Positions 5,890 through 14,412 of a stretch of DNA of 64,000 nucleotides are shown here, in pieces. Origin of the DNA: Kordia sp. (GTDB lineage Bacteria > Bacteroidota > Bacteroidia > Flavobacteriales > Flavobacteriaceae). The position numbers were made by a program, and so were the translations under genes. The stretch covers positions 124,113 to 188,112 of the forward strand of contig NZ_CBDIPG010000002.1 in NCBI RefSeq assembly GCF_965283645.1, read 5' to 3'. Position 1 is the first letter of the stretch. Each line of letters starts with the position of its first letter. The notes below the pieces were generated by a model that did not search any database, was not told where the DNA came from, and saw only the letters and a list, made by a program, of their open reading frames with translations.

Positions 5890-5997
5890 ACTTTACCGAA
5901 AAAATAAATATACGAAAAGATTAATGTTGGCAAAACTAGCATTGATCTTTTTTTAGCTTAAAAAGGTAAAATACAGTACAAATTATAGTGGAATCCC

Positions 5998-6005
5998 TAT
6001 ATTTG
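5998..6005 (+). promoter_or_regulatory. -7 promoter box for smpB
   Basis: TATATTTG 9 bp upstream of ATG 6015. Confidence 0.65.
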
Positions 6006-6014
6006 CGCTCATTT

Positions 6015-6473
6015 ATGCAAAAAAATATCAACATACAAAACAAGAAGGCGCGCTTTCAATATGAAATCTTAGATAAGTATACGGCAGGAATTGTCTTAAC
6101 GGGAACTGAGATTAAATCTATTCGAATGAGCAAAGCTTCTATTGCCGAAAGTTTCTGCGAATTTAACGAGCAAGGAGAACTTTTTGTGGTGAATATGTAT
6201 ATTGAAGAATATGCTTTTGGCACGCATTACAATCACCAACCGCGAAGTACACGAAAGTTGTTGTTGAATAAAAAAGAATTGCGAAGCTTAGAAAAAAGTA
6301 TCAAAAACGCTGGATTAACCATTGTTCCGTTGCGTTTATTCTTAAATGAAAAAGGATTGGCAAAATTATCTATTGCGCTTGCAAAAGGTAAAAAGATTCA
6401 TGACAAACGTGAAACGATGAAAGATCGTGACAACAAACGTAACCTGGATCGTATTAAGAAAAATTTCCGTTAA
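6015..6473 (+). CDS. smpB: SsrA-binding protein
   Basis: [39 protein letters not shown]; start at ATG 6015. Confidence 0.97.
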
Positions 6474-6541
6474 GTTTCTACTAGTTATTTACTGTATAAA
6501 ATCACGTCATTACGAGAATTTGTTCGCTCTAATCACATAAT

Positions 6542-6569
6542 TGTCATTCCTGCGAAGATAGGATTCCAT
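6542..6569. repeat. Degenerate REP-like hairpin
   Basis: GTCATTCCTGCGAAGATAGGATTCC is an imperfect palindrome beginning with GTCA. Confidence 0.35.
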
Positions 6570-6617
6570 TTTACTAGTAATTCACGAATTACTTTGCTTG
6601 CATTACGGAAAACCGCA

Positions 6618-6648
6618 TTGTATATGTGTGCATTTTGTTTTACATTTA
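6618..6648 (+). promoter_or_regulatory. Candidate array promoter (Pc-like)
   Basis: TTG-N20-TACATTTA (one mismatch to TAnnTTTG), pointing into the cassette array. Confidence 0.4.
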
Positions 6649-6653
6649 GGGGA

Positions 6654-6742
6654 AATAACAGGAAGTTTCGATAAAAATACTTCCTGTTATTGACTAAATT
6701 TAGTATGAAAACGGGAATTCCTGTTATTCATACGTTAGCTGC
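6654..6742 (+). other. attI-like leader site of the cassette array
   Basis: TTCCTGTTATT at 6681 and 6718, inverted copy at 6654-6664, then GTTAGCT at 6734; no folded left arm, unlike the other sites. Confidence 0.5.
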
Positions 6743-6758
6743 AAGCTGAAAAAATCAA

Positions 6759-7046
6759 ATGGAACCTGAATTAAAAAAATACTTGCTCGAACAATGTCGA
6801 GATTGGATGCTTAAAGAAGAAATCAAAGTATTAAACAGATTAGGATTAACAGAACACGGAGAGACGGTTACACGAAAAAATGCTTTAGTTGAATATAAAA
6901 TGGAATTGTTTTATGGGTTTCAAGACAAAAAAGTAAATGATTTAGTTTCTTTAGAAAAAACTCTTGTGGAAGAAAGAATAGCAGAACGTATATTAAATGA
7001 TAACCCCGATATTCTGAATAATTGCTCAAATTGTGGAAAATTATGA
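6759..7046 (+). CDS. Cassette A hypothetical protein, ends in a lone CxxC
   Basis: 95 aa ORF 25 bp after the GTT site. Confidence 0.6.
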   Translation: MEPELKKYLLEQCRDWMLKEEIKVLNRLGLTEHGETVTRKNALVEYKMELFYGFQDKKVNDLVSLEKTLVEERIAERILNDNPDILNNCSNCGKL

Positions 7047-7447
7047 CTACAGAACCAAGAGGAAGATTATATCAAGATTCTGAATTTGAATTCAATGAGT
7101 TTAACGGATTAAAAATAGAAAAACTAATTGTCTGTGAAAATCCAGAGACTAAAGAGCCTATACTTATTTATATTAAAGTGGAAAATAGAAATTGGCATCA
7201 ATTCTTTTTGGACGCAGGAATAGGGTTTTGGGAAAACTGGGACGAAATTGACATTGAGGATGATTCTTATGATTTCATTGATTTTACTGACAAATTTGAT
7301 TTAAAAAACAAAGTTATTAATAGAATATTCTGTAAAAAAGATTTAAATAATAGCAGAATAATATTAGAACTGAAAAGCAACGAAAAGTTGATTTTAAAAT
7401 GCAAAGAGCCAAATATATTTGATTCTGATTGTGAATTAATAATGTAA
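7043..7447 (+). CDS. Cassette A second hypothetical protein
   Basis: ATG 7043 overlaps the upstream TGA (ATGA); acidic protein. Confidence 0.65.
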   Translation: MTTEPRGRLYQDSEFEFNEFNGLKIEKLIVCENPETKEPILIYIKVENRNWHQFFLDAGIGFWENWDEIDIEDDSYDFIDFTDKFDLKNKVINRIFCKKDLNNSRIILELKSNEKLILKCKEPNIFDSDCELIM

Positions 7448-7456
7448 AAAAGGCCA

Positions 7457-7655
7457 GCAGGTAACAAGGTATAAAAAACATAGGGCGCTTTAGGCTTATC
7501 CGAAAGATCTGTGTGTATTTGCAAAGTCACCGAATATAAAATTTGGCGTTTATGAGAAAAAAGATAAAAGCAAAATATTTATATTTGGCTTAGTACCAAC
7601 TCGAAACGTATCGCTTATTACCTGCCCTACGTTTCTTATACTAGCCGTTGTGCGT
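7457..7655 (+). repeat. attC-like site 1 (long class, about 200 bp)
   Basis: GGTAAC-AAG-GTATAA-N6-TAGGGC ... GCCCTA-N6-TTATAC-TAGCC-GTTGTGC. Confidence 0.8.
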
Positions 7656-7688
7656 CATTTAAGAACACTCGAATAAAAAAAGAAAATT

Positions 7689-7892
7689 ATGACAAATTAT
7701 ATTAACTGTGATAAACCTGAAAGTCCTTTCGGAAGAATTGAATGTAATAATTGCGGAGCGAAATATGATTTTGAATTTGACTCAATAAAAGCACCTTACA
7801 AAGAAACAGGAATTTTAAAATGTGCTTGTGGAGTTGACTTGGTAAGATGGAATAGTACGACTGAACCATATTTGGTAAGAGTTAATGAATAA
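7689..7892 (+). CDS. Cassette B small zinc-ribbon-like protein
   Basis: CNNC and CAC motifs; 67 aa; overlaps the next gene by 8 bp. Confidence 0.6.
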   Translation: MTNYINCDKPESPFGRIECNNCGAKYDFEFDSIKAPYKETGILKCACGVDLVRWNSTTEPYLVRVNE

Positions 7893-8277
7893 AACATACA
7901 AAATACATCTGAATGGAATTCTAATTGGGACTTCTGAATTAGAAAAAGCTGATGCACCAATGGGAGTTGCATTTGGACTGATTGTATTTAACCGAATTGA
8001 ATCGCCATACGAATTCTTTAAAGAATACTGTTTGAAAAACAATATTGTTATAAATACAGACGACCCAGAATTTGAATTTATCGACACTCAAGTGATATCT
8101 GGTTTAAAAGTATTTAGACAAGATGGACTGGAAATAAAAGGAGTTGCTGGAAATGCAATTACAGGAATGAAAAGAGATGGATATGAAATTTCAATTTTAG
8201 GAATCAATTATCCTTTTTACGAAGAAGAATTTCCACATCACGTAAAGGAATATGAAAATTTGTTCGGAAAAGAATAA
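7885..8277 (+). CDS. Cassette B hypothetical protein
   Basis: 130 aa ORF ending just before ACGCACAAC. Confidence 0.7.
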   Translation: MNKTYKIHLNGILIGTSELEKADAPMGVAFGLIVFNRIESPYEFFKEYCLKNNIVINTDDPEFEFIDTQVISGLKVFRQDGLEIKGVAGNAITGMKRDGYEISILGINYPFYEEEFPHHVKEYENLFGKE

Positions 8278-8283
8278 AAACGA

Positions 8284-8423
8284 ACGCACAACACCGTGTA
8301 TAATTAATTGCTTTGGTCGTTGCCTATTTGGAAAATTCCTTCGGAATTTTCTCGCGTTCGTTTTTGTTTACTAAATTAGTTGCTCAAACACGCAACTAAC
8401 CATACACATCAACGTTAGGCTTA
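8284..8423 (+). repeat. attC-like site 2 (medium class, about 140 bp)
   Basis: CACAAC-ACC-GTGTAT ... ATACAC-ATCAAC-GTTAGGC; internal hairpins GAAAATTCC/GGAATTTTC and TTAGTTGC/GCAACTAA. Confidence 0.85.
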
Positions 8424-8454
8424 ATTAGAAAAACCCGAGAGACCAATTCCATAA

Positions 8455-9024
8455 ATGAAAATATTCCTTAAAATTCTTGGACAAATAATAGCACTCGGAA
8501 TAGTAATCTTTTTAGGAATATTATTGACTTGGGAACAAATTCCTGGAAATAAAAATATTTGTGATGCTGGTCAAGGACTTTACGGATTAGCTTGGTTGAT
8601 TTTCATAATTATTTCAATCGCTTTGTTTATAAATTCTTGGATTTTTCTAAATAAAAATAATTGGAAAAAATACCGAATTACTGTTATGATAATCTGTGTA
8701 CTTATCGTTTTAATATCGTTAACTCTAAGGTCTGTGATTTTTCAAGTATCATATGGAAAAGAAAAACATAAAATTGAAAATACCGAAAATTACAATCAGT
8801 TAATTGAAGTAAAACTTTATGAAAATGGAAAATTCTATTCTTGGACTTATGATATGGGTTGTCAATTAGAAAATATCGGAACATATAAATTGAATGGAAA
8901 TAAAATAACATTGGAATTTGGAAATGAAAAATCTGAATATTTAGGAACAGAATATCTAATCGAAAATGATAAAGTTGTCTGTAATAAAGGTTGTGATTAC
9001 GAAAACGAATTGAAAATAGAATAA
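8455..9024 (+). CDS. Cassette C membrane protein (3 predicted TM plus soluble C-terminus)
   Basis: Three hydrophobic stretches in the N-terminal half. Confidence 0.75.
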   Translation: MKIFLKILGQIIALGIVIFLGILLTWEQIPGNKNICDAGQGLYGLAWLIFIIISIALFINSWIFLNKNNWKKYRITVMIICVLIVLISLTLRSVIFQVSYGKEKHKIENTENYNQLIEVKLYENGKFYSWTYDMGCQLENIGTYKLNGNKITLEFGNEKSEYLGTEYLIENDKVVCNKGCDYENELKIE

Positions 9025-9030
9025 AATAAC

Positions 9031-9170
9031 TAAGCCTAACACCGTGTATAATTAATTGCTTTGGTCGTTGCTTATTTGGAAAATTCCTTCGGAAGTTTCT
9101 TGCGTTCGTTTTTGTTTACTAAATTAGTTGCTTAAAGACGCAACTAACCATACACAATCACGTTAGGCAC
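9031..9170 (+). repeat. attC-like site 3 (medium class)
   Basis: Near-identical to site 2: GCCTAAC-ACC-GTGTAT ... ATACAC-AATCAC-GTTAGGC. Confidence 0.85.
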
Positions 9171-9206
9171 AAGCAAAAGAAACCAACATTAACCAACTAT
9201 ATTAGA

Positions 9207-9608
9207 ATGAGTTTAGTTCAAATTGACAAACAAAAACTAATCGATACAGGATTTACGGAATCTGGTGTAAAAAGGTATGAAAATACTATTACAGAATATT
9301 CCCAAATACTATTCGATAAGTCTAAAAAATTCGGAGAAGCGCGAAAGGCCAACGATTCTGCGGTAGAAATAAATTATGAAAATGTTCAAGGAGCTGTGAA
9401 GGTAATTTCTTCAACATTCGCAGATGAAAAAATACCGAAATGGAAATTATGGGCTCAATCTGGTGAATATCTGATAACCGCACTTTGTGGTTATTTAGGT
9501 TCTCAAGCGACACAAGATAATGCACCAAGTCACTTCACAATATTCTTTGTAATATCTGCAGTTGTCGGAGTAGGTTTGTTTATCGTTAGAAAAACTTCAA
9601 AAAACTAA
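9207..9608 (+). CDS. Cassette D protein 1: putative histone-fold domain plus 2 TM helices
   Basis: FTESGVKRY..EYSQILFDKSKKFGEARK..EINYENVQGA pattern; hydrophobic C-terminus. Confidence 0.6.
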   Translation: MSLVQIDKQKLIDTGFTESGVKRYENTITEYSQILFDKSKKFGEARKANDSAVEINYENVQGAVKVISSTFADEKIPKWKLWAQSGEYLITALCGYLGSQATQDNAPSHFTIFFVISAVVGVGLFIVRKTSKN

Positions 9609-9612
9609 AAAA

Positions 9613-10122
9613 ATGAAAAAGTCAATAAAATACACAGATTCGGCTTCAAAAAAACTTAATAGTGTTTTGGAGAAAGTCAAAGAACAAATTGCTGATGATA
9701 TCGTTAATTCTAAAAATTATCCTGGAGAAGAACTTATTGAAATAACAGCTTCAGATATTGAAGAAACTTATCGCAGATTAAGCATACGGAATAACAAGTC
9801 AACATTTTACAGAAAAAGTAAAATGATAAGAATGATAATTCCTGTTTATTTTATTTTGGGTATTATGCTAACACTTTTTGGCATTTTTAGAAAAGATATT
9901 ATGGAATTAATTAAAAATGACAAAGAGGGTCTTATGTATTCACTAACAGGTTTTGTGATATCTCTAACTTCTGCTGCTATATTTTATCTATACAAAAATA
10001 AAGAGAATGAAAGAAGACGTGAATATGAAAAAGAACGTAGAAATCTAAGTAAGTGGATATCTGAAATTGATTTAGAAAAATATGATACTGAATTTCTGAA
10101 AGATGAAAATGCCAGTGCCTAA
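9613..10122 (+). CDS. Cassette D protein 2: putative histone-fold domain plus 2 TM helices and charged tail
   Basis: YTDSASKKL..EITASDIEET pattern; stop codon lies inside GCCTAAC of site 4. Confidence 0.6.
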   Translation: MKKSIKYTDSASKKLNSVLEKVKEQIADDIVNSKNYPGEELIEITASDIEETYRRLSIRNNKSTFYRKSKMIRMIIPVYFILGIMLTLFGIFRKDIMELIKNDKEGLMYSLTGFVISLTSAAIFYLYKNKENERRREYEKERRNLSKWISEIDLEKYDTEFLKDENASA

Positions 10123-10318
10123 CATCGTATAAAAACAATAGGGCAATTGTAGCAAAACCGAATGGTTTGGGCGCATTTGCAAGGTCGCCAAATTTTTAAA
10201 TTTGGCTTATTGAGAAAGAAAAAATAATAAGAAAAATTTAAAAATTCAGCTTGTGGCTCAACCGAATAGATAGCGTGCAAATCTGCCCTACTGTTCTTAT
10301 ACACAACCGTTATATATA
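10115..10318 (+). repeat. attC-like site 4 (long class)
   Basis: GCCTAAC-ATC-GTATAA-N6-TAGGGC ... GCCCTA-N6-TTATAC-ACAACC-GTTATAT. Confidence 0.82.
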
Positions 10319-10703
10319 ATTCAAAAAAAGAATCGGAGACATCCGTTAGAAAAGAGATTTTGGAACGATTTTATGTAGTTTTTAAAATCAATAGGTTTTC
10401 ATTTAAGTTTTTGTCAGTTACACTGTGAAAGACAGTTCTTTCAAACATTGTTAATGTACTCAAAAACTTGATTTAAGGTAGTAGATTTATTTGACAAAAT
10501 CAACTCTTTATAAAAAACGATAAAATCTAACGTTGTAAATGCTAAAAAACAGCACACGCCTTATACAAATATAAAGCGCATCCTTTTTTTTATTTCAAAC
10601 GGATTTCAATGCTCATTTGGGCTCTTTTTTGAACTCCTGTTTTTTACTTGAATTTAAGTTGTATTTTAGTTCAATAAAGAACGCAAAAAAACATATATAT
10701 AAC
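10309..10703 (+). other. Cassette E: apparently non-coding cassette
   Basis: Bounded by GTTATATATA and TATATATAAC; no ORF of 60 aa or more in the track. Confidence 0.65.
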
Positions 10704-10751
10704 ATTGTGTAAACCTGCATTAAAACGCAGTTTACACTTAACGTTACCTGC
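10694..10751 (+). repeat. attC-like site 5 (short class, 58 bp)
   Basis: TATAAC-ATT-GTGTAAACCTGC-8 nt loop-GCAGTTTACAC-TTAAC-GTTACCT, with one unpaired C in the left arm. Confidence 0.8.
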
Positions 10752-10770
10752 AAGCTGAAAAAAATTGAGT

Positions 10771-11460
10771 ATGACAAAAAACATTACACTTCTGATTTTA
10801 ATATTTATTATTTCAAGTTGCTCTGCACAAGAAAATTTTAGAGATTATTATTATCAAATTGGAACAAAAAAGGAAATCAAAGTTTACAAATATGTTGACA
10901 AAAACAATCCAAGGAATATTGAATATTGGAAAGTTACTACAAACCCGAAAACAAATAAAATTCTAACCGAATCTTTCACAACTGATTTTAGACTTTACAA
11001 TATATTCGAGGAAGAGCTGAAAACAAATGGAGCGGAAATAATTCGTTATGCAGATTTTGAGGTTAATGACGAAAAACAGAATATACGGATTGACGGAACG
11101 ATTGTCGATAAAGATGTTTATAAATGGAATGACACAAACAAATATATTTATTCAGTCAAATACACGAGTCCAAAATATGGAAATGAACAATTCATAAAAG
11201 AACGAACTAAAAATAGCTTTGAAAAAATAACTATTAGCGGAACTGAATATTCAACATTAAAATTTAAGGATGAATACGAGATTAAATCACTCGAAAATGA
11301 CCAGAACTATGAATTTCATCAATTTACCTATTACGCAAAGGGAATTGGAATGGTAAAATACCAAAGGTATCATCCAGATGGAGCAACGATTGAATTAGAA
11401 TTAACCGAAATCCTAACTGAAAAAGAATTTGATGAACTGAAAGAAAAAGCCAGCAGGTAA
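10771..11460 (+). CDS. Cassette F lipoprotein
   Basis: Lipobox ISSC; stop codon inside GGTAAC of site 6; start at ATG 10771. Confidence 0.8.
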   Translation: MTKNITLLILIFIISSCSAQENFRDYYYQIGTKKEIKVYKYVDKNNPRNIEYWKVTTNPKTNKILTESFTTDFRLYNIFEEELKTNGAEIIRYADFEVNDEKQNIRIDGTIVDKDVYKWNDTNKYIYSVKYTSPKYGNEQFIKERTKNSFEKITISGTEYSTLKFKDEYEIKSLENDQNYEFHQFTYYAKGIGMVKYQRYHPDGATIELELTEILTEKEFDELKEKASR

Positions 11461-11589
11461 CACCGTATATAATTCATTGCTAGTTATAGCCAGTTTACGA
11501 AAGTCCTCGCGGACTTTATTTGTCCGTAATTTTTTATAAATTAGGTGCTTAAAACACGCAACAAACCATATACAACAACGTTGCCATTA
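11453..11589 (+). repeat. attC-like site 6 (medium class variant)
   Basis: GGTAAC-ACC-GTATAT-N6-TTGC ... GCAA-N6-ATATAC-AACAAC-GTTGCCA. Confidence 0.8.
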
Positions 11590-11599
11590 ATTAGAACCT

Positions 11600-12442
11600 A
11601 TGACCAGAAACATTCCGAAAAAGGTAAGAGAAGCTTTAAGAAAAGAAGTCAATTTTGGATGTCCAATTGATGGTTGTGGCAGTCCTTATTTGAGTTATCA
11701 TCATTTTGACCCACCTTGGCATATTGAAAATCATCATAGACCAGAGGGAATGATTGCATTATGCCTCGAACATCACAAGCAAGCCGATTATAATGCATTC
11801 ACAGATGACCAATTAAAAGAATTTAAAAAAAATCCGTTCCTATCTTCAGATGATTCAATACAAGGTCAAATAAATTGGAAAAGAGAGAATTTAGTTTTCT
11901 TAATTGGGGGAAATGTTTTCATTGGAGCTCAAAATATTTATCTCAATAAACAAGAACAATTGTTGTGGCTCACTACTGATGAACAAGGTAATTCACTTCT
12001 GAATTTAGATATGAAATCCGAAAAGGGAGAATTGATTTTTTCATTACGTGATAATGATTGGTTGGTTATGTCCAATTTTGATAATATTGAAAGTATTCCG
12101 AGCGGAAAAAAATTATTCTTCGAAAATAAAACAGAAGATTTAAAAATCGATATTGAATTTAATAACTATTCAAAAGTCGACTTTCAAAAGAAATATGCAG
12201 AAGATATTCCAGCGAGGTGGATAGAGATAATTACAAATAAAATTGTTGCTGAACCTATCACAGTCTGCGTAATCAATGGTCACTTAACTTATCCTTTTGA
12301 AATTAGAATGGAATCAACAGGCACTACAATAAACGGAGAAGGAAGCGAGATTACTGTAATGGGAAGTCTAACTCTAAAAAATGTCAAGGAACACATAATG
12401 CAAAGAGGATTAGTTGTCGGAAGTGGAGTACTGATAAAGTAA
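11600..12442 (+). CDS. Cassette G protein with N-terminal HNH-type nuclease domain
   Basis: RKEVNFGCPIDGC..YHHFDP..MIALCLEHH. Confidence 0.75.
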   Translation: MTRNIPKKVREALRKEVNFGCPIDGCGSPYLSYHHFDPPWHIENHHRPEGMIALCLEHHKQADYNAFTDDQLKEFKKNPFLSSDDSIQGQINWKRENLVFLIGGNVFIGAQNIYLNKQEQLLWLTTDEQGNSLLNLDMKSEKGELIFSLRDNDWLVMSNFDNIESIPSGKKLFFENKTEDLKIDIEFNNYSKVDFQKKYAEDIPARWIEIITNKIVAEPITVCVINGHLTYPFEIRMESTGTTINGEGSEITVMGSLTLKNVKEHIMQRGLVVGSGVLIK

Positions 12443-12443
12443 C

Positions 12444-12647
12444 TAATGGCAACAATGTATATAAAAAATAACGCAAGTCGTTGCTAAAACAAAGGCTTGG
12501 GCATTATTTGGAAGTCGCCAAATTTTTCAATTTGACAATTTCCTAAAAATAAAATAAATAGTAAAATTTAAAAATTCGGCTTGTGTATAATCTGAAAAGT
12601 ATCGCTTACAACTGCCCTACTTTTCTTATACGGAGACGTTGGCAGTA
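12444..12647 (+). repeat. attC-like site 7 (long class, mismatched left arm)
   Basis: GGCAAC-AAT-GTATAT ... GCCCTA-N6-TTATAC-GGAGAC-GTTGGCA; centre resembles site 4. Confidence 0.75.
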
Positions 12648-12655
12648 ATACCGAA

Positions 12656-13744
12656 ATGAACATAGAATTAGAAAACCTACAATCGACTATAAAAAGGAAG
12701 TACAGTTTTAAATATAAACCTGAATTTTCTGAATCTTTCAAGACAGATATAAAAGACAACCAAATAATCCCATTAACTATTGAAGTTTTTGAAAAATTAG
12801 AATGGCCAATTGTCTTTAGAGACAATAAGTCAGTTGAAGCTAAAAGGAAAGGCGACTGGAATAAACTGACCGAAAAAATAACAATTACCAAAAAGGCTTC
12901 TGGTCGAATTGAGGTTCATAGTAAAACAATTGAAGGTAATTTCATTGATTTCGGAAAAAACTCTAAAAGAACTGGTTTATTCATTATTCTTTTTCAAAAG
13001 TTAGCTAAAGAATACCAAGAAAGCGGAAAACTCTCTGAATTAGAAACGGAGTTTGAAAAAGAAAACAGTTGGGCAGATTATGAAATTCCTTCAGAATTAC
13101 CAAAACCAAAAGAATTTGGAAAACCAAATTTAGTTCTTTCAATAATTGGAGGTCTTATTATCGCAATTCTGTTTGGAATATTAATTGCGTTTTTAACTAC
13201 AAAATTTACCTATTTCATTGGAATCTATGAATTCGCAATTGGAATCGGTATTGGATACTTCTTTGGTCAAGTTTTAAAGAAAACTAATTACATTGAGTTT
13301 AGATCAATTCAATTTATCATTGGAGGAATCGTGATTGTAATGTTTATAACGAATCTATTCACACAATATCAATTAATAATCGCAGAGAATAACATTTCAG
13401 AACTTAGCTTTTTTGAATTTATGAAACTGCGTTTTGAAGGCGGGTTAACAATAAAGGATTTAAATACAGGTTGGATTGGACTTACTTTAAGTTGGGTTTT
13501 TCAAATGGTTTTCCCTTACTTTTTAGCTGTCGGTAAAGTTGCAGGAATTACAGCAAATTATATTATTGAAAAAATTCCTGAAAAAGTACTTGAATATACA
13601 ATTTATCTTTTCGAAATGGAAAAGTCAGAAAGTGAAGTTAGAGCTGAATTAGCACAAAAAGGATGGAATAAAAAGTCTGACCAAGATAATGTTTTTAAAG
13701 CTATTGTCGAGATAAGTGGATTTCATCAAATGAACAGAGAATAA
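12656..13744 (+). CDS. Cassette H membrane protein (soluble N-terminus, about 4 TM)
   Basis: 362 aa with Gly-rich hydrophobic helices in the C-terminal half. Confidence 0.78.
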   Translation: MNIELENLQSTIKRKYSFKYKPEFSESFKTDIKDNQIIPLTIEVFEKLEWPIVFRDNKSVEAKRKGDWNKLTEKITITKKASGRIEVHSKTIEGNFIDFGKNSKRTGLFIILFQKLAKEYQESGKLSELETEFEKENSWADYEIPSELPKPKEFGKPNLVLSIIGGLIIAILFGILIAFLTTKFTYFIGIYEFAIGIGIGYFFGQVLKKTNYIEFRSIQFIIGGIVIVMFITNLFTQYQLIIAENNISELSFFEFMKLRFEGGLTIKDLNTGWIGLTLSWVFQMVFPYFLAVGKVAGITANYIIEKIPEKVLEYTIYLFEMEKSESEVRAELAQKGWNKKSDQDNVFKAIVEISGFHQMNRE

Positions 13745-13750
13745 AAGTAC

Positions 13751-13880
13751 TACTTGGCAACACCGTAAATAATTAATTGCTATTTATAATATACTTATGA
13801 AAACCCTCGCAGATTCTCTATTCATTTTTATTCGCCAAATTATATTCTTAAACAAATAATACACAAAACCATTACCAATA
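13751..13880 (+). repeat. Eroded attC-like site 8 (medium class)
   Basis: GGCAAC-ACC-GTAAATAATTAATTGC left arm aligns to sites 2, 3 and 6; right end reads ATTACC instead of GTT. Confidence 0.55.
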
Positions 13881-13886
13881 ATTAAG

Positions 13887-14282
13887 ATGAAGAAAATAAT
13901 TTTCATATTAACTTTGATATGCATATCTACTATTGGATTCAGTCAAACAGATTCAATTAAAGGAAACCAATTTGAACTAACGGGAAAGATTATCAATGAA
14001 ATTTCTTTAACTCCTCATTGTGGAAATTTTGCTTTCGGAACGGTCGTTGAATTTGAAATTATCGAATTTTCTGACTCCAATTATAAAGGTAGTTCTATAG
14101 GTGTGATTTTTACTTGTCCTGAATTCTATAAAAGTGGATTTTTTGAGATTGGAAAGACTTATACAATTACCATTGCTGATGAAAATCAAGCAGACTTCAG
14201 TTGGATTATTCCTAATGAATATATATTGAATAAATACAAGTTGGACAAAAAACTGTGGGTCATTGAAGCGAATAAGAAATAA
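13887..14282 (+). CDS. Cassette I-like secreted hypothetical protein
   Basis: Signal peptide MKKIIFILTLICISTIGFSQ. Confidence 0.75.
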   Translation: MKKIIFILTLICISTIGFSQTDSIKGNQFELTGKIINEISLTPHCGNFAFGTVVEFEIIEFSDSNYKGSSIGVIFTCPEFYKSGFFEIGKTYTITIADENQADFSWIIPNEYILNKYKLDKKLWVIEANKK

Positions 14283-14412
14283 TAAAATATGAAATCATAG
14301 TTCACTACGGCTGTTATGTTATATATACTAAACGTTACAAATTCCAAATACACAAAACCAAGCACATTCAAGATTTCCCAAATGTGCTCAACTTAAAATA
14401 TAGTAGTGTTTT

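What the first reader, a model, noticed from the sequence alone, without database searches (positions are those of the whole stretch)
7457..12647. Non-canonical but consistent recombination-site grammar across unrelated site families
Seen: all seven intact sites share AAC-N3-GTRTAW on the left and WTAYAC-N5/6-GTT on the right, so the right arm always has a 2-3 nt longer spacer, although their centres are unrelated. The 58 bp site 5 has one unpaired C in the left arm (GTGTAAACCTGC vs GCAGTTTACAC), equivalent to an extrahelical G on the bottom strand as in attC sites. Medium sites carry branched internal hairpins. Inference: the sites are recognised as folded single-stranded DNA by a recombinase that reads structure, with geometry different from VCR/aadA-type attC, which may let it escape standard attC models.
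Basis: partly seen in the sequence, partly recalled or inferred. Interest (0 to 1): 0.75.

Follow-up and report, generated by a model that had tools for sequence, protein, structure and literature searches.

The report
Integron-like cassette sites with mirrored asymmetry
The seven repeats are real recombination sites at the ends of mobile gene cassettes in a Kordia (Bacteroidota) genome; they resemble integron attC hairpins but have a different, conserved geometry and go with a Xer-like recombinase fused to HARP domains instead of an integron integrase.

Summary
Seven co-oriented sites (window 7463-12640) all read AAC-N3-GTRTAW ... WTAYAC-N5/6-GTT; 200 dinucleotide shuffles give a mean of 0.05.

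They are cassette-end sites. The bases before each AAC are complementary to the bases after the previous GTT, not to those after the site's own GTT.

The same 3 versus 5/6 spacer geometry recurs in other arrays of this genome, other Kordia species, other Flavobacteriaceae, a Fulvitalea plasmid and metagenome contigs. This holds even where the L-box sequence differs (GGCTAT/ATAGCC, GAATAT/ATATTC, GCATTT/AAATGC).

- Stem pairs covary.
- 103 of 124 non-Watson-Crick cells are A.C on the top strand, which is G.T on the bottom strand.
- The bottom strand folds more stably in 54 of 56 sites.

Canonical attC sites have a 5-nt left spacer and extrahelical bases on the R''-L'' arm; here the extra bases lie on the L'-R' arm.

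The genome has no IntI. Other arrays start next to a co-oriented 428-aa Xer-like recombinase that lacks the IntI insertion and has two N-terminal HARP repeats.

Proxy covariance models of the two site types did not cross-detect. IntegronFinder itself could not be run.

This scan has reported the same system in other genomes. I found no published description.

The parts
6611..6736 (+). attI-like head of the array. It holds ATAACAGGAA / TTCCTGTTAT repeats and ends in ...TCATAC|GTT. No recombinase gene is adjacent; smpB ends at 6473.
   Evidence: The same head motif follows both recombinase genes (C1:1265919, C1:5513922) and heads another orphan array at C1:193937. It is also present downstream of smpB in other Kordia genomes.
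7463..7649 (+). Site 1, long family, 187 nt: AAC-AAG-GTATAA ... TTATAC-TAGCC-GTT.
   Evidence: Its R'' (GCAGGTAAC) is complementary, with one mismatch, to the cassette start GTTAGCTGC at 6734.
8290..8416 (+). Site 2, medium family, 127 nt: AAC-ACC-GTGTAT ... ATACAC-ATCAAC-GTT.
   Evidence: Its R'' ACGCACAAC pairs with GTTGTGCGT at 7647.
9038..9164 (+). Site 3, medium family, 127 nt: AAC-ACC-GTGTAT ... ATACAC-AATCAC-GTT.
   Evidence: Its R'' TAAGCCTAAC pairs with GTTAGGCTTA at 8414.
10121..10311 (+). Site 4, long family, 191 nt: AAC-ATC-GTATAA ... TTATAC-ACAACC-GTT. The ORF's stop codon TAA lies inside R''.
10312..10700 (+). Body of an ORF-less cassette that ends in site 5.
   Evidence: At least five copies in the genome, each preceded by a different site and each ending in the 45-nt site. 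This shows that a cassette is its body plus the site downstream of it.
10701..10745 (+). Site 5, short family, 45 nt: AAC-ATT-GTGTAAA[C]CTGC ... GCAGTTTACAC-TTAAC-GTT, with one bulged base in the left arm.
   Evidence: It is the only window site reached by covariance model R1, which has a trimmed loop (28.1 bits).
11459..11582 (+). Site 6, medium family, 124 nt: AAC-ACC-GTATAT ... ATATAC-AACAAC-GTT.
12451..12640 (+). Site 7, long family, 190 nt: AAC-AAT-GTATAT ... TTATAC-GGAGAC-GTT.
13759..13873 (+). Decayed eighth site: AAC-ACC-GTAAAT ... TACAC-AAAACC-ATT (GTT mutated to ATT).
   Evidence: Read directly from the sequence.
14323..14336 (+). Orphan right arm ATATAC-TAAAC-GTT, which closes the array before the convergent 1190-aa gene.

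Best explanation
The seven repeats are the recombination sites of an integron-like gene-cassette array. Each cassette is its gene(s) plus the site downstream of it. Cassettes were inserted one by one by a crossover at or next to the right-hand GTT, which left chimeric sites.

The sites act as folded single-stranded hairpins of the bottom strand. From the outside in, the fold has:
- an R stem (RYYYAAC/GTTRRRY);
- an asymmetric unpaired spacer, 5-6 nt on the arm that carries the crossover point (L'-R') and 3 nt on the other arm;
- a long L stem that on the bottom strand is continuous except for two fixed G.T wobbles;
- a variable centre.

The enzyme is most likely the 428-aa tyrosine recombinase encoded twice elsewhere in this genome, acting here in trans. 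It has a Xer-like core without the IntI-specific insertion and two N-terminal HARP repeats. HARP is the domain that makes SMARCAL1 an annealing helicase acting on ssDNA:dsDNA junctions and branched DNA. I infer that it takes over the structure-reading role that the I2 insertion and the extrahelical bases play in classical integrons.

Shown: the cassette architecture, the conserved geometry, the covariation, the strand bias, and the association of recombinase with arrays. Inferred: ssDNA recombination, the exact cleavage point, and the role of HARP.
For: Cassette logic. The reverse complement of the 7 nt before AAC of site n matches the 7 nt after GTT of site n-1 at 6-7 of 7 positions in 36 of 60 neighbouring pairs. 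Against the site's own flank the mean is 1.96 of 7. The 434-bp ORF-less cassette keeps its downstream site in at least five different contexts.

Geometry. Of 48 spacer combinations only (3,5) and (3,6) are enriched: 44 and 70 against about 25 background. I also defined sites only by cassette-end complementarity. All 24 of these with an L stem of at least 6 bp on the cassette strand are (3,6) or (3,5). The same geometry is seen in L038 (another genus), L055, L056 (Fulvitalea plasmid), L054, L062 and L067.

Structure. Covariation; the bottom-strand RNAalifold stem of 16 contiguous pairs with two invariant G.U; A.C:G.T ratio of 103:1; bottom strand more stable in 54 of 56 sites.

Enzyme. No IntI in the genome. 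The recombinase lies directly upstream of arrays in G000 (twice), in five Kordia orthologue loci and in more distant loci. It scores 221 bits on NF040815 and 188 bits on IntI model TIGR02249, below the 265-bit cut-off. The alignment to VchIntIA skips chain residues 201-246, and about 42 residues fewer than in IntI1 separate KGKKDR from HTLRHSFAT. The N-terminal profile hits the SMARCAL1 HARP domain, PDB 4O66, at E = 9e-5, and Pfam HARP hits 7 of 27 homologues.

The smpB-to-NRPS-like-gene interval that holds the array varies from 2.6 to more than 11 kb among Kordia species.
Against: The window's own array has no adjacent recombinase, so trans action is assumed.

Xer-type enzymes normally recombine duplex DNA. 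IntI derivatives without the I2 insertion are reported to shift toward duplex activity (PMC4792948, abstract only). A hairpin substrate for an enzyme without I2 is therefore not a given.

The sites used for covariation were selected for a perfect 6-bp L stem and are related to one another, so the shuffle statistics overstate independence.

One homologous locus (L084) has the array divergent from the recombinase, and one (L054) shows a single site only.
Confidence: 0.72

Rival explanations
1. These are ordinary attC sites of a classical integron remnant (a CALIN). They are recombined by a canonical IntI that has been lost from, or is absent in, this assembly. The geometry is only a lineage-specific flavour that standard tools would still call.
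For: AAC/GTT triplets, AACA...CGTT closing positions, stop codons inside R'', chimeric R boxes and a bottom-strand folding bias are all classical attC features. The right arm (L'-N5/6-GTT) has the same spacing as class-1 attC sites.
Against: No protein reaches the IntI model cut-off in a 99.98% complete genome. In every genome looked at, the arrays start beside the HARP/Xer-like enzyme instead. The left spacer is 3 nt rather than 5, and the R''-L'' extrahelical bases that define attC are missing (PMC2727003). The proxy attC model gives no hit on the size-compatible 45-nt site.
Confidence: 0.07
2. The cassette system is real, but the Xer-like recombinase works on double-stranded DNA. It would use the AAC/GTT-flanked arms as a conventional core site. 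The hairpin potential would then be a by-product of the palindromic arms, or would serve transcription termination.
For: The enzyme's core is Xer-like and lacks the IntI insertion needed for attC hairpin recombination. Xer/dif reactions are normally duplex reactions.
Against: The spacers next to the crossover point differ between partner sites (AAACAC, AAGACC, TAGCC and others), so a duplex reaction with two strand exchanges would lack overlap homology. The stem is kept over 16 bp by compensatory changes, far beyond a core site. Mismatches are strand-biased 103:1 in the way expected for one folded strand. The HARP repeats point to branched or junction DNA (PMC4035279).
Confidence: 0.14
3. The repeats are REP/MITE-like palindromic elements or intrinsic terminators that spread between genes. 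They would have no role in cassette recombination.
For: Three repeat families occur in intergenic positions after ORFs. They are AT-rich palindromes with internal hairpins.
Against: This cannot explain why each unit's first bases are the reverse complement of its last bases before AAC, while each site's own two flanks do not match. It also cannot explain the identical cassette in five different contexts or the constant association with one recombinase family and an attI-like head.
Confidence: 0.03

Closest known systems
Integron attC sites (59-base elements) recombined by IntI, e.g. class-1 aadA/aadB/dfrA cassettes and Vibrio cholerae repeats
   Same: Imperfect palindromes at the 3' end of promoterless cassettes. 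AAC...GTT conserved triplets within RYYYAAC/GTTRRRY. A after AAC and C before GTT. Chimeric sites after insertion. Crossover at the right-hand GTT. R stem, unpaired spacer, L stem and variable centre. Bottom strand is the better-folding strand. The spacer on the L'-R' arm is 5-6 nt, as in class-1 attC sites.
   Different: The left (R''-L'') spacer is 3 nt instead of 5. There are no extrahelical bases in L'' (only the 45-nt family has one bulge, at another position and with a variable base). The asymmetry is therefore mirrored: the extra 2-3 nt lie on the arm that carries the crossover point. The L stem is long and on the bottom strand is interrupted only by two fixed G.T wobbles. Many sites are 120-190 nt. 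The partner enzyme is not an IntI.
IntI integron integrases (TIGR02249; VchIntIA structure 2A3V; IntI1)
   Same: Tyrosine recombinase with a SAM-like core-binding domain and a catalytic domain. It is encoded at the head of cassette arrays next to an attI-like site. It is about 25% identical to IntI1.
   Different: It lacks the IntI-specific additional domain of about 40-46 aa around patch III. It scores below the IntI model cut-off. It has about 150 extra N-terminal residues forming two HARP repeats. In most loci it is co-oriented with the cassettes rather than divergent.
Xer recombinases (XerA/XerC/XerD) and Xer-exploiting elements such as CTX phage, whose folded ssDNA mimics dif (the CTX comparison is from my own knowledge, not tested here)
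   Same: The catalytic core is most similar to XerA/XerC/XerD. CTX phage shows that Xer enzymes can act on a folded single strand.
   Different: No 28-bp dif-like site. The sites are 45-191-nt hairpins in tandem arrays with cassette logic. The enzyme has a HARP fusion.
HARP domains of the SMARCAL1 annealing helicase (PDB 4O66)
   Same: The N-terminal repeats match the HARP profile and PDB chain 4O66. In SMARCAL1, HARP accompanies activity on ssDNA:dsDNA junctions and branched DNA, and confers annealing-helicase activity when fused to other SNF2 proteins (PMC4035279).
   Different: Here HARP is fused to a tyrosine recombinase rather than a SNF2 ATPase. DNA binding by these repeats is untested.

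Membership tests
Integron attC site | Conserved AAC ... GTT triplets within inverse core sites RYYYAAC / GTTRRRY at the two ends | tested here: met
   All seven sites, e.g. GCCTAAC ... GTTAGGC. A always follows AAC and C always precedes GTT.
Integron attC site | Sites in arrays are chimeric: the R'' of a cassette pairs with the first bases of that same cassette (a circular-intermediate footprint) | tested here: met
   36 of 60 neighbouring pairs match at 6-7 of 7 positions; against the site's own flank the mean is 1.96 of 7.
Integron attC site | L''/L' stem conserved as structure rather than sequence | tested here: met
   Nine of 14 pairs show compensatory changes; covariation 0.381 against 0.088 in shuffles; RNAalifold consensus.
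Integron attC site | Two or three extrahelical bases on the R''-L'' arm, including the conserved G in L'' of the bottom strand, so that this arm is the longer one (PMC2727003) | tested here: not met
   Six of the seven window sites, and every site I defined by cassette-end complementarity, have no bulge in the first part of L''. The R''-L'' arm is shorter by 2-3 nt. Ten class-1 attC sites parsed here show the canonical pattern. Only site 5 has one bulge, after 7 bp, and its base varies (C or T).
Integron attC site | The bottom strand is the recombinogenic and better-folding strand | tested here: met
   Folding only: 103 A.C/C.A against 1 T.G on the top strand; bottom strand more stable in 54 of 56 sites. 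Recombination itself was not tested.
Integron attC site | Detected by the IntegronFinder attC covariance model | not testable with these tools
   The model is not available here. Proxy: a covariance model built from 10 class-1 attC sites finds 57-61-nt attC sites at 31-55 bits but gives no hit on the 45-nt site. The reciprocal model finds no class-1 attC. Neither proxy can span long centres.
Integron (IntI + attI + cassette array) | An integron integrase with the IntI-specific additional domain | tested here: not met
   No match over the TIGR02249 cut-off in the genome. The array-associated enzyme lacks the insertion.
Integron (IntI + attI + cassette array) | Array of mostly co-oriented, promoterless cassettes starting at a dedicated attI-like site | tested here: met
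   Window 6611-14336: the head motif is shared with the arrays next to the recombinases, followed by eight or nine cassettes.
Xer/dif chromosome-dimer resolution system | A 28-bp dif-type duplex site (two 11-bp arms and a 6-bp centre), one per replicon | tested here: not met
   The sites are 45-191-nt hairpins, dozens per genome, in arrays. The recombinase only just reaches the XerA model cut-off (221 against 220 bits).

The most novel reading that the evidence does not exclude
Bacteroidota carry a second, so far undescribed lineage of integrons. In it a HARP-fused Xer-like recombinase recombines folded bottom-strand hairpins whose asymmetry is the mirror image of attC: a 2-3-nt surplus on the cleaved arm and no extrahelical bases. 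The HARP repeats would read the DNA structure in place of IntI's I2 insertion. This would be either an independent solution to hairpin recombination or a relative of the state before IntI.
Probability: 0.5. Interest if true: 0.85.

Novelty: new variant of a known kind. Interest (0 to 1): 0.75.

Why it matters
Integrons are the textbook system for capturing genes as cassettes. They are defined by IntI and by attC hairpins with extrahelical bases. Surveys based on those two models report almost none in Bacteroidota.

These sites show that the same cassette logic runs in that phylum with a different hairpin geometry and a different enzyme. Three consequences follow:
- Integron censuses and cassette metagenomics under-count a major phylum.
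- The rules for strand choice and structure recognition in hairpin recombination can be compared between two natural solutions.
- A HARP-recombinase/hairpin pair could become a second structure-specific recombination tool, orthogonal to IntI/attC.

Tried and rejected
1. I defined cassette ends with 7-mers allowing one mismatch. This gave hundreds of false sites in the AT-rich DNA, so I replaced it with exact matches.

2. Covariance models built from constructs with the centre trimmed to GAAA cannot span real centres of 100-170 nt, so model R1 found only the 45-nt site. I therefore limited the cross-detection test to short sites and did not use the models to map distribution.

3. I looked for published attC alignments in the supplements of PMC4889954, PMC7439510 and PMC5027507; none are held. 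I took 10 class-1 attC sites from plasmid records instead.

5. A generic inverted-repeat listing over distant loci was too noisy to score. It gave only anecdotal extra examples (Aquiflexum, a Bacteroidales MAG).

6. The search for related loci with the family alignment used very general peptide patterns. It returned mostly unrelated tyrosine recombinases from many phyla, and only 3 of the 80 loci had arrays of this grammar.

7. I considered that the top strand might be the active one, because its 3' arm is the longer, as in the canonical bottom strand. I rejected this for three reasons: the repeated cassette places the crossover at the right-hand GTT; tyrosine-recombinase polarity fits cleavage on the 5' arm of the bottom strand; and the wobble bias and fold energies favour the bottom strand.

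8. Five literature searches (and for the attC literature) found no description of this system.

Full report
**What is there.** The region 6.6-14.3 kb of the window lies between smpB (5988-6473) and a convergent 1190-aa gene. It holds short + strand ORFs separated by imperfect palindromes. All read AAC-N3-GTRTAW ... WTAYAC-N5/6-GTT. The combined pattern occurs 7 times in the window, against a mean of 0.05 (maximum 1) in 200 dinucleotide-preserving shuffles. The medium sites contain internal hairpins, and one of these is conserved across genomes.

**They are cassette-end sites.**
- The bases that follow the GTT of one site are the reverse complement of the bases that precede the AAC of the next site, for example GTTAGGCTTA at 8414 and TAAGCCTAAC at 9031. 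A site's own two flanks do not match each other.
- Over all arrays collected, 36 of 60 neighbouring pairs match at 6-7 of 7 positions. Against a site's own flank the mean is 1.96 of 7, which is chance level.
- This is the footprint of circular cassettes inserted one after another.
- The 434-bp ORF-less unit 10312-10745 occurs at least five times in the genome. Each copy is preceded by a different site and ends in the same 45-nt site. A cassette is therefore its body plus the downstream site, and the crossover lies at or next to the right-hand GTT, as in integrons.
- Stop codons sit inside R'' in two cassettes.

**The grammar is a conserved geometry, not a sequence motif.**
- I scanned about 250 kb of arrays and flanks for any AAC...GTT pair with a perfect 6-bp stem at every combination of spacers. 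Only (3,5) and (3,6) are enriched, at 44 and 70 hits against about 25 in the other cells. The canonical-like (5,5) and (5,6) cells are at background.
- To avoid circularity I then defined sites only by exact complementarity of cassette ends. All 24 such sites with an L stem of at least 6 bp on the cassette strand start that stem at exactly (3,6) (20 sites) or (3,5) (4 sites).
- The L box varies: GTATAA, GTGTAT, GTATAT, GGCTAT, GAATAT, and GCATTT on one metagenome contig. Its partner is always complementary.
- In an alignment of 47 distinct sites, 9 of 14 L-stem pairs show changes on both sides. The covariation score is 0.381, against 0.088 in shuffles (0 of 500 reach it) and at most 0.073 when partners are slid. 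The sites were selected for a perfect first 6 bp and are related to one another, so these figures overstate independence. The pairs beyond position 6 and the sites defined by cassette ends alone are not subject to that selection.

**Which strand folds.**
- Of 124 non-Watson-Crick cells in the L stem, 94 are A.C and 9 are C.A on the top strand. These become G.T wobbles on the bottom strand. Only one cell is T.G on the top strand.
- RNAalifold on the bottom strand of 16 medium sites gives 16 contiguous pairs with two invariant G.U positions.
- With DNA energy parameters the bottom strand is more stable in 54 of 56 sites, by a mean of 2.4 kcal/mol.
- The bottom strand is therefore the strand under selection for folding, as in classical integrons.
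- The spacers next to the crossover differ between sites. A conventional duplex reaction would lack overlap homology, which also argues for a single-strand exchange. This last point is inference.

**Comparison with canonical attC.**
- I extracted ten class-1 attC sites from plasmid records: aac(6')-29a, VIM-2, arr-3, aac(6')-Ib, dfrA5, aadB, aadA2, aadA5, dfrA12 and orfF.
- They read AAC-N5-L'', with one bulged base after 3 bp and often further bulges, then L'-N5/6-GTT.
- Bouvier et al. (PMC2727003) define extrahelical bases as bases on the R''-L'' arm with no partner on the R'-L' arm. They show that these bases direct strand choice.
- In the present sites the L'-R' arm has the canonical 5-6-nt spacing, and the AACA...CGTT closing positions are also canonical. 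The R''-L'' spacer, however, is 3 nt and L'' has no bulge. The surplus of 2-3 nt therefore sits on the opposite arm, the one that carries the crossover point.

**Would standard models miss them?** IntegronFinder's model is not available here. As a proxy I built two covariance models:
- R2, from the ten class-1 sites with centres trimmed, finds natural 57-61-nt attC sites at 31-55 bits, including one not in the training set. It gives no hit at E <= 10 on the size-compatible 45-nt site.
- R1, from 47 sites of the present type, finds that 45-nt site at 28 bits and no class-1 attC.

Neither proxy can span long centres, so the test is narrow. The IntegronFinder 2.0 paper reports In0 elements and a single complete integron (Salinibacter ruber) for Bacteroidetes. 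A 2024 preprint cites that paper in listing Bacteroidota among clades previously found without any integrons.

**The enzyme.**
- The genome is 99.98% complete, in two contigs, and is a Kordia species by the names attached to orthologues. It has no protein over the IntI model cut-off.
- The same site grammar forms further arrays at C1:195106-203395, C1:1266351-1281832, C1:5514499-5519009 and C1:24126-30722.
- Two of these arrays begin directly downstream of two 99%-identical, co-oriented genes for a 428-aa tyrosine recombinase.
- The recombinase scores 221 bits on NF040815 (XerA/"integron integrase"; cut-off 220) and 188 bits on TIGR02249 (cut-off 265).
- Its alignment to VchIntIA (2A3V) skips chain residues 201-246. 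About 42 fewer residues than in IntI1 separate KGKKDR from HTLRHSFAT. The IntI-specific domain is therefore absent.
- The extra 150 N-terminal residues are two repeats. A profile of them hits only the SMARCAL1 HARP domain (PDB 4O66, E = 9e-5). Pfam HARP is found in 7 of 27 homologues, and longer homologues have three repeats.
- SMARCAL1 (HARP) binds ssDNA:dsDNA junctions, bubbles and Holliday junctions. Fusing its two HARP domains to other SNF2 proteins confers annealing-helicase activity (PMC4035279).
- Orthologues (77-83% identity) and more distant homologues (36-55%) lie at the head of arrays with the same grammar in other Kordia genomes, another genus of the family, an ENA MAG, a Fulvitalea plasmid, Winogradskyella and Flavobacteriaceae S0862. 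In Psychroserpens the orientation is divergent.
- The window's array starts with the same head motif (ATAACAGGAA/TTCCTGTTAT ... ATAC|GTT) that follows the recombinase genes, but it has no recombinase of its own. Action in trans is inferred.
- The smpB-to-NRPS-like-gene interval that holds the array varies from 2.6 to more than 11 kb among Kordia species, consistent with cassette turnover.

**Mechanism proposed.** The bottom strand folds into R stem, asymmetric spacer, L stem and centre. The recombinase, aided by its HARP repeats, binds the R and L boxes. It cleaves the 5' arm at AA|C, which is G|TT on the top strand, and exchanges one strand with the attI-like head or with another site. Replication then resolves the product. 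The conserved 3-versus-5/6 bulge and the two fixed G.T wobbles are candidate strand-choice and register signals that replace the extrahelical bases. The anatomy and its conservation are shown; the chemistry is inferred by analogy with IntI/attC.

**Novelty.** Five literature searches found no description (for the attC literature). NCBI names the enzyme generically. Earlier notes of this scan, which are AI notes and which I read only after my own analysis, report the same HARP/Xer-like recombinase with cassette arrays in several other Bacteroidota genomes, and G.T bias on one strand of such a site. They agree with what I found here but are not independent evidence. What this report adds is the quantified site geometry, the explicit contrast with canonical attC, and the strand inference. 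I class the finding as a new variant of a known kind.

Noticed in passing
window 10312-10745; copies at G000 C1:1265961-1266403, C1:5516037-5516469, C1:5519010-5519443, C1:30664-31077(-): A 434-bp cassette without an ORF is the most repeated cassette in the genome. It is the first cassette after one of the recombinase genes. It may carry a promoter, a small RNA or a regulatory site.
   Followed up: partly
window 6611-6736; G000 C1:193937, C1:1265919, C1:5513922; isolated copy at C1:3250427: An attI-like head with ATAACAGGAA/TTCCTGTTAT repeats ends in ATAC|GTT. The isolated copy (GGAATTCCTGTTATATATACGTTACCC) could be an empty insertion site.
   Followed up: partly
L001:3380-3410 (G000 C1); L142 (G003), near the end of the smpB-linked interval; L031:10907-10964: Very short 'collapsed' sites of the type AACACCGGTAACCGTT occur at some cassette ends in several Kordia genomes. 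In them a left arm is joined almost directly to a right arm. They could be deletion products of the hairpin or a minimal site form.
   Followed up: no
alignment A1 columns 17/36 and 22/31 (positions 7 and 12 of the L stem), e.g. window 8305/8401: Two fixed positions of the L stem are almost always A.C on the top strand (G.T on the bottom strand) across site families. They look like conserved recognition or strand-choice marks rather than random mismatches.
   Followed up: partly
L054:10001-12048 (JGI metagenome contig): A 547-aa homologue with three HARP repeats is followed directly by an SSB gene. A single site with the 3/6 geometry but a different L box (GCATTT/AAATGC) lies 3 kb downstream, at the contig end.
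   Followed up: no
L084 (Psychroserpens sp. AS72): Here the array of the same grammar lies upstream of the recombinase homologue and on the opposite strand (divergent, as in classical integrons). In most other loci it is co-oriented.
   Followed up: no
L137-L145 (the interval after smpB in nine Kordia genomes) compared with window 6474-14412: The interval between smpB and the NRPS-like gene is a variable hotspot, from 2.6 to more than 11 kb. G003 has the head motif, three ORFs and a block of roughly 40-bp tandem repeats, but no typical sites.
   Followed up: partly
window 13759-13873: The eighth site is decayed (L'' is GTAAAT, and the right triplet is ATT instead of GTT). The last two cassettes are probably fixed in place.
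   Followed up: no
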